NCBI RefSeq assembly: GCF_009914755.1
Contig: NC_060936.1
Length of the DNA: 64,000 nt
Origin: the human T2T-CHM13v2.0 reference genome, Homo sapiens
Reading direction: 5' to 3' (one strand)
Both the position numbers and the translations under genes were made by a program. Under the pieces are notes generated by a model, which was not told where the DNA came from, searched no databases, and worked only from the letters and a program-made list of their open reading frames with translations. Shown here piece after piece: positions 22,711 through 23,681 of this stretch (positions within the stretch are counted from its first letter, which is position 1; every line of letters starts with the position of its first letter).

Positions 22711-23681
22711 CTTTTTTCTTTTACTTTTAGATGAACTGGAGGTGAGTCCTGATCATATTACATGAAGCTTTCCACCATTGTGAACAATTAGGCAAGGCAT
22801 TAGTGACAGAGGGGCATCACTGATAAATACAGAGCAATACTGGGGCAGTAAAGAGGAAGCTACAGAGACATTTGTGTTTCTTCAAATATCAGAAGCTTCC
22901 ACATCACAGCAGGAGAGCTGAGGACGAGCTCCACCTCCCGAAGGCTTAGTCCAAAAACTTCCTGTTGGCATTTGCCCTGAACAAGCCCCCCGACTTCTGG
23001 CATCATCTGCTGGACTATGAGATCCAGCTGGCTTTCCAGGGTATTGGAAACCTTTATGTTACAATCCCCATTATATATCTCAACTCCACCAGCTATGTCC
23101 TCTGGCAGGTAGACATAGCTGGTGGAGTTGAGATATATAATGGGGACCTCCTGGTCAATTTGGACATCAACATCGTTTTTGGTGGCAACTTTGTACATAG
23201 GGATTTCCTTTTGCACCGCAGACTTTACCAGAGGGAAATCTTATTTCCTGCAACAAACAATCATTCAGGGCTCCAGCAACTGGTACAGACCTGTGGTAAG
23301 GTCATCCCTCACTCTGAGGACTTTGAGTCTTGCTTGATTCATCAAATTGGACATCTGAATTTTCTTCTGCTGCTCAATCTGTTTCTCTTTCTTCTCATAA
23401 TATTCCATAATCTTTAGTCTTTGGGTTTGCACAAACTGACCTTTCTCTATGTTGAACTCTTCTTCTGCCTTTGCATCTATTCCTTCTGCTTTCTCATTGG
23501 CTTCTTGTTCAATGAAAGCCATCATATGCTTTATCTGCTTTTGCATGTCAGCATTGCTGAGAGCCATGGTGAGAGCAAAGCTAGGCCGGTGAGCAGCAGG
23601 CTCGAGTTTAGGTTTGAAGGGTGAGGTGGGAGGAATGGGCAGAGGAAACCCCTGTGCAGACCTTGGTTTCCTTTACTTTTT
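22711..23681 (-). pseudogene. ATP6V1E1P3: Processed pseudogene of V-ATPase subunit E1 (ATP6V1E1), probably ATP6V1E1P3
   Basis: ORFs [28 protein letters not shown]... and ...[16 protein letters not shown]...[19 protein letters not shown]. Intronless, with both UTRs, a decayed poly-A, and TSD gagaacatt (22702-22710, 23682-23690). Premature TGA at 23265-23267 and a late frameshift. The P3 number is from recall. Confidence 0.93.
23065..23146. repeat. Perfect 35-bp inverted repeat with 12-nt loop
   Basis: 23065-23099 is the exact reverse complement of 23112-23146. Confidence 0.97.

What the first reader, a model, noticed from the sequence alone, without database searches (positions are those of the whole stretch)
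23065..23146. De novo 35-bp perfect hairpin in the ATP6V1E1 retrocopy: candidate small-RNA source antisense to the parent gene
Seen: a 36-nt insert replaces the Ser codon of the parental ESYLP (now [16 protein letters not shown]). It is an exact inverted copy of the adjacent 35 nt, giving a 35-bp stem with a 12-nt loop. Known: canonical Microprocessor substrates have stems of about 35 bp, and replication template switching can create such hairpins in one step. Inference: the hairpin is transcribed within C12orf56 intron 2, and its 5' arm is antisense to the ATP6V1E1 (and ATP6V1E2) coding sequence, so it could yield a miRNA or siRNA against V-ATPase E mRNAs. The arms are identical in an otherwise decayed pseudogene, which implies a recent origin or homogenisation.
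Basis: partly seen in the sequence, partly recalled or inferred. Interest (0 to 1): 0.8.

Follow-up and report, generated by a model that had tools for sequence, protein, structure and literature searches.

The report
Template-switch hairpin in a dead retrocopy
A single DNA-copying slip inside a dead copy of the ATP6V1E1 gene created a perfect 35-base-pair hairpin; this kind of scar is common and well described, and only about one in a hundred ever becomes a microRNA.

Summary
Window 23065-23099 and 23112-23146 are perfectly complementary 35-nt arms 12 nt apart. They are the longest perfect inverted repeat in the window.

The arm at 23112-23146 is an inserted inverted copy. It is absent from the chr22 parent gene, two other retrocopies and ATP6V1E2, that is 4 of 4 comparators. 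Both differences between the parental arm and the parent gene are mirrored in the copy, so the event happened in genomic DNA after retro-insertion. It fits type 1-4-3-2 of the published four-point template-switch model.

In the C12orf56-sense transcript the 5' arm is antisense to ATP6V1E1. Possible 22-mers pair 22/22 across the exon 7/8 junction. ATP6V1E2 pairs at only 22/35 with no seed match.

Nothing shows that small RNAs are made:
- No Rfam family reaches its threshold, and control palindromes give the same weak miRNA hits.
- None of three pri-miRNA sequence motifs is present.
- The locus is not among the published template-switch miRNAs.
- The published conversion rate is 57 of 6,054 hairpins, 0.9%.

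Most likely this is a neutral scar. It is a clean new example of a known kind.

The parts
23112..23146 (-). Inserted arm. It is the 5' arm of the hairpin in the C12orf56/pseudogene-sense transcript, an inverted copy of 23065-23099, antisense to ATP6V1E1 coding sequence.
   Evidence: 35/35 complementary. (absent from the parent gene, the chr1 and chr18 retrocopies and ATP6V1E2, 4 of 4). (33/35 complementary to parent mRNA; 22-mers starting at arm positions 13 or 14 pair 22/22).
23100..23111 (-). Loop of 12 nt. It is parental sequence in its original orientation (codons YLPE), with 2 of 12 bases differing from the parent.
   Evidence: aligns with the end of parental exon 7. (the MFE closes one U-G pair, leaving 10 nt unpaired).
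23065..23099 (-). Parental arm, the 3' arm in the sense transcript. It covers codons [12 protein letters not shown] and spans the former exon 7/exon 8 junction. It was the template of the inverted copy.
   Evidence: It matches parent mRNA at 33/35. The two differences, at window 23076 and 23067, are mirrored at 23135 and 23144.
23147..23147 (-). One base (G in pseudogene sense) at the outer edge of the insert. Neither the parental sequence (T) nor an extension of the inverted copy (A) explains it. It may be an untemplated or mis-incorporated base, or a later substitution.
   Evidence: Direct reading. In RNA it can form a G-U wobble pair that extends the stem.
22723..23679 (-). ATP6V1E1P3, a processed pseudogene. 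It has no introns, two in-frame stops and lacks one parental exon. It is 6.1% diverged from the parental exons.
   Evidence: Hub gene table.. (57 mismatches in 929 aligned nt; the missing stretch of about 90 nt matches a chr22 exon at 98.9%).
22702..22713 (.). Candidate target-site duplication, left copy (GAGAACATTCTT). An A-rich tail remnant (in minus sense) follows it at about 22711-22729.
   Evidence: family D6, 12 nt, 92% identity to the copy at 23682-23693. (reading of the T-rich stretch).
23682..23693 (.). Candidate target-site duplication, right copy (GAGAACATTTTT), immediately past the 5' end of the retrocopy.
   Evidence: family D6.

Best explanation
The hairpin is the scar of one short-range template-switch mutation in germline DNA replication. 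It arose inside ATP6V1E1P3, a processed pseudogene that was already dead.

The polymerase left its template at the former Ser codon. It copied 35 nt of the nearby sequence in reverse complement: the codons [12 protein letters not shown], which begin 12 nt downstream in pseudogene sense. It then returned to the original template. This is type 1-4-3-2 of the four-point model (mirror type 3-2-1-4) and leaves an inverted repeat with an uninverted spacer.

The event came after retro-insertion, within roughly the last half to two thirds of the pseudogene's life.

The hairpin is carried passively in a C12orf56 intron. Most likely it is spliced out and degraded with the intron, without producing a functional small RNA.

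Shown: the structure, the direction of copying, the local source, and the timing relative to the pseudogene's own substitutions. Inferred: the replication mechanism, as opposed to other polymerase switches, and the absence of function.
For: 1. The arms are 35/35 complementary.
2. The insert is absent from 4 of 4 other copies: the chr22 parent, the chr1 and chr18 retrocopies, and ATP6V1E2.
3. The 3' arm aligns with parental exons 7 and 8 at 33/35. Both differences are mirrored in the inserted arm. One of them (C to A, window 23076) is specific to this copy against all 4 comparators. So the template was this locus after it had begun to diverge.
4. The loop keeps the parental orientation. This matches type 1-4-3-2, which the authors report for 31% of 794 high-confidence human-chimp events (passages of PMC5453318).
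5. The copied fragment (35 nt) is well above the 14-15 nt thresholds those authors use.
6. Against function:
- Of 6,054 primate-lineage template-switch hairpins of miRNA size in genes, 57 (0.9%) are miRBase loci (PMC10710096, Results).
- The locus is not in that paper's Table S1. All 3 parts were read, and the only chr12 row is at 69.58 Mb.
- The hub's RefSeq table lists no miRNA gene in the window.
- None of 18 Rfam matches (E up to 10) reaches gathering.
- Two other perfect palindromes in the window give the same kind of both-strand, sub-threshold miRNA hits.
- 0 of 3 pri-miRNA sequence motifs are present.
- No paper in the library names ATP6V1E1P3.
Against: The geometry is what Microprocessor prefers: a 35-bp stem and a 10-12 nt loop. 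[quoted passage not shown] That was the context of 81 of the 99 intragenic template-switch miRNA loci in PMC10710096.

Several accepted template-switch miRNAs have the same copy length, for example hsa-mir-3927 (36) and hsa-mir-934, mir-4465 and mir-4703 (35).

No small-RNA data could be consulted, so lack of function is a prior, not an observation.

One base (23147) is not explained by a clean single switch.

The ancestral state comes from paralogues, not from orthologous primate sequence.
Confidence: 0.87

Rival explanations
1. Proto-miRNA or natural intronic shRNA. The hairpin is cut by Drosha/DGCR8 (or directly by Dicer) out of the C12orf56 intron. The 5'-arm product loads into Argonaute and represses or slices ATP6V1E1 mRNA at the exon 7/8 junction.
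For: - The stem is 35 perfect pairs, or 38 pairs in the MFE once wobble pairs are counted, with a 10-12 nt loop. It is stable in a 500-nt context.
- 22-mers from arm positions 13 or 14 pair 22/22 with the spliced parent mRNA. The position-14 product would begin with U.
- Template-switch hairpins of this size have become miRNAs.
- C12orf56 appears in a list of genes down-regulated in Sertoli-cell-only testes, next to germ-cell genes. This hints that the host is transcribed in male germ cells (one passage of PMC10406544).
Against: - The base rate is 0.9%.
- It is not annotated as a miRNA (hub table).
- It has no basal UG, no apical UGU/GUG and no CNNC at the expected distance; the only CNNC is 35 nt past the stem.
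- Per PMC10710096 citing Fang and Bartel, wobble pairs and a mismatch motif in the basal stem enhance processing, and 105 of 111 template-switch miRNA loci gained mutations after the switch. This stem has none.
- ATP6V1E1 is, from my own knowledge, a broadly required housekeeping subunit. An efficient siRNA against it would probably be selected against.
- No read data were seen.
Confidence: 0.05
2. The inverted copy was made during retrotransposition itself. The LINE-1 reverse transcriptase snapped back on its nascent cDNA and then returned to the mRNA. On this reading the hairpin is as old as the pseudogene.
For: The geometry fits. The copied segment lies 3' of the insertion point in mRNA sense, so it would already have been reverse-transcribed when the switch occurred (my derivation). 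Reverse transcriptases are known to switch templates; I saw only the search listing for this, bioRxiv 10.1101/2021.05.13.443781.
Against: - The arm carries a substitution (C to A at 23076) found in none of the 4 other copies, and it is mirrored in the inserted arm. An origin at insertion would need that change to be already in the source mRNA or cDNA, or two matching later substitutions.
- The probability that 70 nt stay unchanged over the pseudogene's whole age is 1.4-4.3%.
Confidence: 0.04
3. The insert is an assembly artefact or a private or rare variant of the CHM13 genome, not a fixed human feature.
For: Only one genome was available. Template-switch variants do segregate in humans: 3,705 clusters are cited in PMC10710096.
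Against: - The arms mirror substitutions specific to this copy, and the junctions are clean.
- The authors of PMC5453318 report that every candidate event they inspected in resequencing data was reliable assembly. That is a general statement, not one about this locus.
- A segregating variant would still be a real template-switch event.
Confidence: 0.04

Closest known systems
Short-range template-switch mutations, four-point model type 1-4-3-2 / 3-2-1-4 (Loytynoja and Goldman 2017, PMC5453318; Monttinen and Loytynoja 2022, PMC8794818, search listing only)
   Same: A single reverse-complement copy of adjacent sequence replaces a few bases and makes a perfect inverted repeat with an uninverted spacer. 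The copy length (35 nt) is well above the authors' thresholds. No pre-existing near-repeat is needed.
   Different: Here the ancestral state is inferred from paralogues (the parent gene and sister retrocopies) rather than from orthologues. One junction base (23147) is not explained. The host sequence is a processed pseudogene, so the new arm is antisense to a functional gene located elsewhere.
Template-switch-born human miRNAs, e.g. hsa-mir-3927, hsa-mir-934, hsa-mir-4465 (Monttinen, Frilander and Loytynoja 2023, PMC10710096)
   Same: The same origin and the same copy length (35-36 nt). [quoted passage not shown]
   Different: Those loci have small-RNA read stacks and miRBase entries, and most (105 of 111) gained mismatches after the switch. 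This locus has no annotation, no read evidence available here, a still-perfect stem, and none of the three processing motifs.
Pseudogene hairpin endo-siRNAs, e.g. human psiPPM1K (Chan et al. 2013, PMC3616710) and mouse-oocyte pseudogene hairpins (cited there)
   Same: An inverted repeat inside a transcribed retro-pseudogene could give small RNAs complementary to the parent gene.
   Different: psiPPM1K small RNAs were supported by sequencing reads and experiments (abstract and passages). Nothing comparable is known here. This stem is only 35 bp, which is miRNA or shRNA size rather than long dsRNA.

Membership tests
Short-range template-switch mutation (four-point model) | A fragment copied in reverse-complement orientation from sequence close by | tested here: met
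   The arms are 35/35 complementary and 12 nt apart. The copy matches the local sequence better than any other copy does: the parent at 33/35 and ATP6V1E2 at 22/35, and chr1 at 32/35 and chr18 at 31/35 (my count from the alignment).
Short-range template-switch mutation (four-point model) | Copied fragment longer than chance matches (the authors use at least 14 nt, or at least 15 nt explaining at least 5 differences) | tested here: met
   35 nt, explaining a 33-nt net insertion.
Short-range template-switch mutation (four-point model) | An ancestral sequence that lacks the inverted copy | tested here: met
   4 of 4 paralogous copies lack it. Orthologous primate sequence, the authors' usual evidence, was not available.
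Short-range template-switch mutation (four-point model) | Switch-point order 1-4-3-2: an inverted repeat is created and the spacer is not inverted | tested here: met
   The loop aligns with the parent in its original orientation, 10 of 12 identical.
Canonical miRNA gene (miRBase / MirGeneDB style) | A stem of about 35 bp with an apical loop of 10 nt or more, in a transcribed region | tested here: met
   Sense orientation in a C12orf56 intron comes from the hub gene table. Transcription itself was not measured.
Canonical miRNA gene (miRBase / MirGeneDB style) | Small-RNA reads of about 22 nt from the arms with uniform 5' ends and a 2-nt offset, dependent on Drosha and Dicer | not testable with these tools
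   No small-RNA or CLIP data were available.
Canonical miRNA gene (miRBase / MirGeneDB style) | Listed as a miRNA, or matches a curated miRNA family | tested here: not met
   No MIR gene appears in the hub's RefSeq table. None of 18 Rfam hits reaches gathering. Control palindromes behave the same way. The locus is absent from Table S1 of PMC10710096. miRBase and MirGeneDB themselves were not searchable.
Canonical miRNA gene (miRBase / MirGeneDB style) | Processing-enhancing motifs: basal UG, apical UGU/GUG, downstream CNNC. These enhance processing and are not strictly defining. Their positions are recalled from the literature, not from a call. | tested here: not met
   0 of 3 are present at the expected places. 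The only CNNC is 35 nt after the stem.
Pseudogene-derived hairpin endo-siRNA locus | An inverted repeat within a transcribed pseudogene, complementary to the parent mRNA | tested here: met
   33/35 over the arm, and 22/22 for 22-mers from arm positions 13 and 14.
Pseudogene-derived hairpin endo-siRNA locus | Dicer-dependent small RNAs mapped to the hairpin | not testable with these tools
   No read data were available.

The most novel reading that the evidence does not exclude
The hairpin is a newborn, still-perfect intronic shRNA. When C12orf56 is transcribed, possibly in male germ cells, its 5' arm yields a small RNA fully complementary to the exon 7/8 junction of ATP6V1E1 mRNA. That RNA would spare ATP6V1E2, which from recall is the testis isoform and which pairs at only 22/35. 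A single replication slip in a dead retrocopy would then have created an isoform-selective silencer of its own parent gene.
Probability: 0.03. Interest if true: 0.6.

Novelty: new member of a known kind. Interest (0 to 1): 0.25.

Why it matters
This is an unusually clean worked example of template switching. The sequence comes from a gene of known sequence, so the direction of copying and the relative timing can be read without any outgroup species.

It also shows the raw material from which miRNAs are proposed to arise. In this case the new arm happens to be antisense to an essential V-ATPase subunit.

If small RNAs were found, it would be a caught-in-the-act case of a pseudogene gaining a silencer of its parent in one mutation. 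Without them, it is one more of several thousand neutral hairpin scars in primate genes.

Tried and rejected
1. Rfam as a test of miRNA identity. The hairpin hits mir-3927, MIR9677, MIR7807, mir-2765 and mir-4451 on both strands, with E-values as low as 6e-8 for four of them (0.003-0.006 for mir-4451), but all are far below gathering. I ran two other perfect palindromes from the window as controls, and they give the same kind of hits. I therefore treat these matches as generic scores for a perfect stem.

2. The built-in repeat finder on the whole window was swamped by low-identity AT-rich arrays. I replaced it with my own scan for perfect inverted repeats.

3. Looking for the locus in print:
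- 'ATP6V1E1P3' is in 0 papers.
- 'C12orf56', 'chr12' and 'ATP6V1E1' are not in the one readable supplement of PMC10710096. That search was uninformative because loci are written '12...', so I read all three parts instead.
- That paper's full list of 6,054 hairpins is not in the readable files.
- The supplements of the human polymorphism study (PMC9435742) are PDFs and could not be read. Whether this insert segregates in humans therefore stays open.

5. The direct repeat D1 (22715-22731 / 23667-23683) is rejected as a target-site duplication. Its right copy lies inside sequence that matches the parent's first exon, and the order of D1 and D6 differs at the two ends. D6 is kept as the candidate.

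6. Homogenisation of the arms, by gene conversion or a repeated switch, is not needed. Zero changes in 70 nt is expected if the event falls in the younger part of the pseudogene's history.

Full report
THE OBSERVATION

One search finds a single inverted repeat in 22900-23300. Its arms are 23065-23099 and 23112-23146, 35 nt each, 100% complementary, with 12 nt between them.

The minus strand translates as ...[36 protein letters not shown]....

In a scan of my own over the whole window, 41 perfect inverted repeats had arms of at least 12 nt and spacers up to 60 nt. This one is the longest. The next is a 32-nt pair inside two Alu elements. All others are 22 nt or shorter and mostly lie in AT-rich arrays.

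With equal base frequencies, the expected number of such a repeat is 3.3e-15 per window and 1.6e-10 per genome.

Folding results:
- As RNA, the minus strand (162 nt) folds at -78.4 kcal/mol, z = -10.3, and 0 of 200 shuffles do as well.
- The stem survives in a 500-nt context, in both the MFE and the centroid.
- As single-stranded DNA the value is -40.6 kcal/mol, z = -11.0.

WHICH ARM IS THE COPY

The window's own genome could be searched. The pseudogene matched these places:
- the parent gene's exons on contig 22;
- retrocopies on contigs 1 and 18;
- the paralogue on contig 2 (ATP6V1E2 by inference);
- weaker pieces on contigs 13 and 4.

I fetched the parental exons, read the exon 7 and exon 8 boundaries, and aligned five copies.

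All four comparators read GAG-TCC/GCA-TAC across the site and lack the insert. In pseudogene sense, 36 nt stand in place of the Ser codon TCC, a net gain of 33 nt.

The arm at 23065-23099 aligns with parental codons [12 protein letters not shown] across the old exon 7/8 junction, at 33 of 35. The arm at 23112-23146 has no counterpart in any other copy. The loop is parental YLPE sequence in its original orientation.

So the arm at 23112-23146 is the new, inverted copy.

One base at its outer edge (23147) is explained neither by the parent nor by extending the copy.

WHEN AND HOW IT AROSE

The parental arm differs from the parent gene at two positions, window 23076 and 23067. Both differences are mirrored in the inserted arm, at 23135 and 23144.

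The first (C to A) is found in none of the four comparators. The second (A to G) is shared with the contig 18 copy, so it may be older or parallel.

The template was therefore this locus after it had started to diverge. This points to a switch during DNA replication after retro-insertion, not to a snap-back by the reverse transcriptase at insertion.

The pseudogene differs from the parental exons at 57 of 929 aligned positions, 6.1%. I modelled one or two mirrored changes before the event and none in 70 nt afterwards. The fraction of the pseudogene's age elapsed since the event then has a median of 0.14-0.20 and a 95% upper bound of 0.51-0.67.

The chance of 70 nt staying unchanged over the whole age is 1.4-4.3%.

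Using recalled primate substitution rates of about 1e-9 per site per year, the retrocopy is some tens of millions of years old. The switch would be perhaps 5-30 million years old. This absolute scale is inference only.

Identical arms therefore do not require a very recent event or any homogenisation.

The pattern is type 1-4-3-2 (mirror type 3-2-1-4) of the four-point model. It creates an inverted repeat with an uninverted spacer and made up 31% of 794 high-confidence human-chimp events (passages of PMC5453318).

WHAT THE TRANSCRIPT WOULD LOOK LIKE

C12orf56 and the pseudogene are both on the minus strand (hub gene table). The hairpin lies in the intron between the exons at 37666-37828 and 15734-15806. 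I could not verify that this is intron 2.

In the host pre-mRNA the 5' arm is the inserted copy and is antisense to ATP6V1E1 mRNA at 33 of 35 positions.

Of eight candidate registers (arm positions 9 to 16), those starting at positions 13 and 14 give 22-mers that pair 22/22 with the spliced parent. The position-14 product would start with U.

At the homologous site of the contig 2 paralogue only 22 of 35 positions match. None of the eight registers has a 7-mer seed match in the 500-nt piece I examined.

IS IT A SMALL-RNA GENE?

Nothing here shows that it is.

- Rfam gives 18 matches with E up to 10 in 22500-23800, and none reaches its gathering score. The highest-scoring is mir-3927 at 48.7 bits against 90. 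The hairpin hits are to palindromic miRNA families, two of them (mir-3927 and mir-4451) on both strands.
- As controls I ran the two other perfect palindromes in the window. They give the same kind of sub-threshold, both-strand miRNA hits: MIR8622 at 71.7 against 197, mir-1972 at 58.5 against 90, and mir-7131 at 23.9 against 74.
- The hub's RefSeq table lists no miRNA gene in the window.
- The stem has no basal UG, no apical UGU or GUG, and no CNNC near the expected place. The only CNNC is 35 nt past the stem. Motif positions are recalled.
- In PMC10710096 (Results read in full), 53,666 putative template-switch events were found in human gene regions. Of these, 31,007 made a new RNA stem and 6,054 were of miRNA size. 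Only 57 of the 6,054 (0.9%) are miRBase loci.
- The same text says that wobble pairs and a basal mismatch motif enhance processing. It also says that 105 of 111 template-switch miRNA loci gained mutations after the switch. This stem is still perfect.
- I read all three parts of that paper's Table S1. Its only chromosome 12 row is hsa-mir-3913 at 69.58 Mb.
- No paper in the library contains 'ATP6V1E1P3'.

On the other side:
- The geometry and context match accepted template-switch miRNAs. [quoted passage not shown]
- Several have copy lengths of 35-36 nt, including hsa-mir-3927 itself.
- C12orf56 appears in a list of genes down-regulated in Sertoli-cell-only testes, alongside germ-cell genes. 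This is a weak hint of germ-cell transcription (one passage of PMC10406544).

The closest precedent for a pseudogene hairpin that silences its parent is psiPPM1K (abstract and passages of PMC3616710).

VERDICT

The feature is real and is a textbook short-range template-switch scar in a processed pseudogene.

| Reading | Probability |
|---|---|
| Neutral scar | about 0.87 |
| Yields Drosha- or Dicer-dependent small RNAs | about 0.05 |
| Regulates ATP6V1E1 in an isoform-selective way | about 0.03 |

The kind is known and this instance is not in print, so I file it as a new member of a known kind with modest interest.

The decisive data were all outside these tools: primate orthologues, human haplotypes, small-RNA and AGO-CLIP reads, miRBase and MirGeneDB themselves, and the full 6,054-locus list. 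The supplements of the human polymorphism study are PDFs that could not be read.

A PRACTICAL POINT FOR THE READ-MAPPING TEST

The 22-mer from arm positions 14-35 occurs exactly three times in the genome: on both arms here and in the contig 1 retrocopy. It also occurs once with one mismatch, on contig 18.

Sense-arm reads can also be fragments of ATP6V1E1 mRNA.

Only reads that cover the positions specific to this copy, or the loop junctions, are diagnostic.

Noticed in passing
window 39505-39536 / 39571-39602: The second-longest perfect inverted repeat in the window, with 32-nt arms and a 34-nt spacer. SRP/Alu-like Rfam hits on opposite strands on either side (39414-39537 minus, 39570-39700 plus) show it is the junction of two head-to-head Alu elements, not a template switch in unique DNA.
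   Followed up: partly
window 54726-54763: A 38-bp perfect palindrome (19 + 19 nt, no spacer) in sequence that is not AT-rich. Its origin is not examined. It gives only weak sub-threshold miRNA-family hits.
   Followed up: partly
window about 23290-23291 (pseudogene position 389/390): ATP6V1E1P3 lacks about 90 nt (30 codons) that are present in the contig 1 retrocopy. The missing stretch matches a single parental exon on contig 22 at 98.9% over 91 nt. The retrocopy therefore probably derives from an exon-skipped ATP6V1E1 transcript, or else lost that stretch in an exon-sized deletion.
   Followed up: partly
window 23359-23536 (pseudogene positions 144-321): Divergence from the parent is uneven: 3 mismatches in 181 nt here against 54 in 748 nt elsewhere (Fisher p = 0.003). 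Possible causes are composition (CpG loss in the 5' UTR part), chance, or a past conversion. This is not resolved.
   Followed up: no
window 22702-22713 and 23682-23693: A candidate target-site duplication (GAGAACATT C/T TT) brackets the retrocopy and its A-rich tail remnant, as expected for LINE-1-mediated insertion.
   Followed up: partly
window 50560-52020: AT-rich arrays built on a TATATTATATATAATATA-like unit produce many 18-22 nt perfect inverted repeats and arm pairs of up to 321 nt at 70-78% identity.
   Followed up: no
window 22551-22610 (minus): A sub-threshold Rfam match to mir-3135 (40.8 bits against a gathering score of 80), next to an SRP/Alu-like hit at 22500-22630. It is probably an Alu-derived resemblance.
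   Followed up: no
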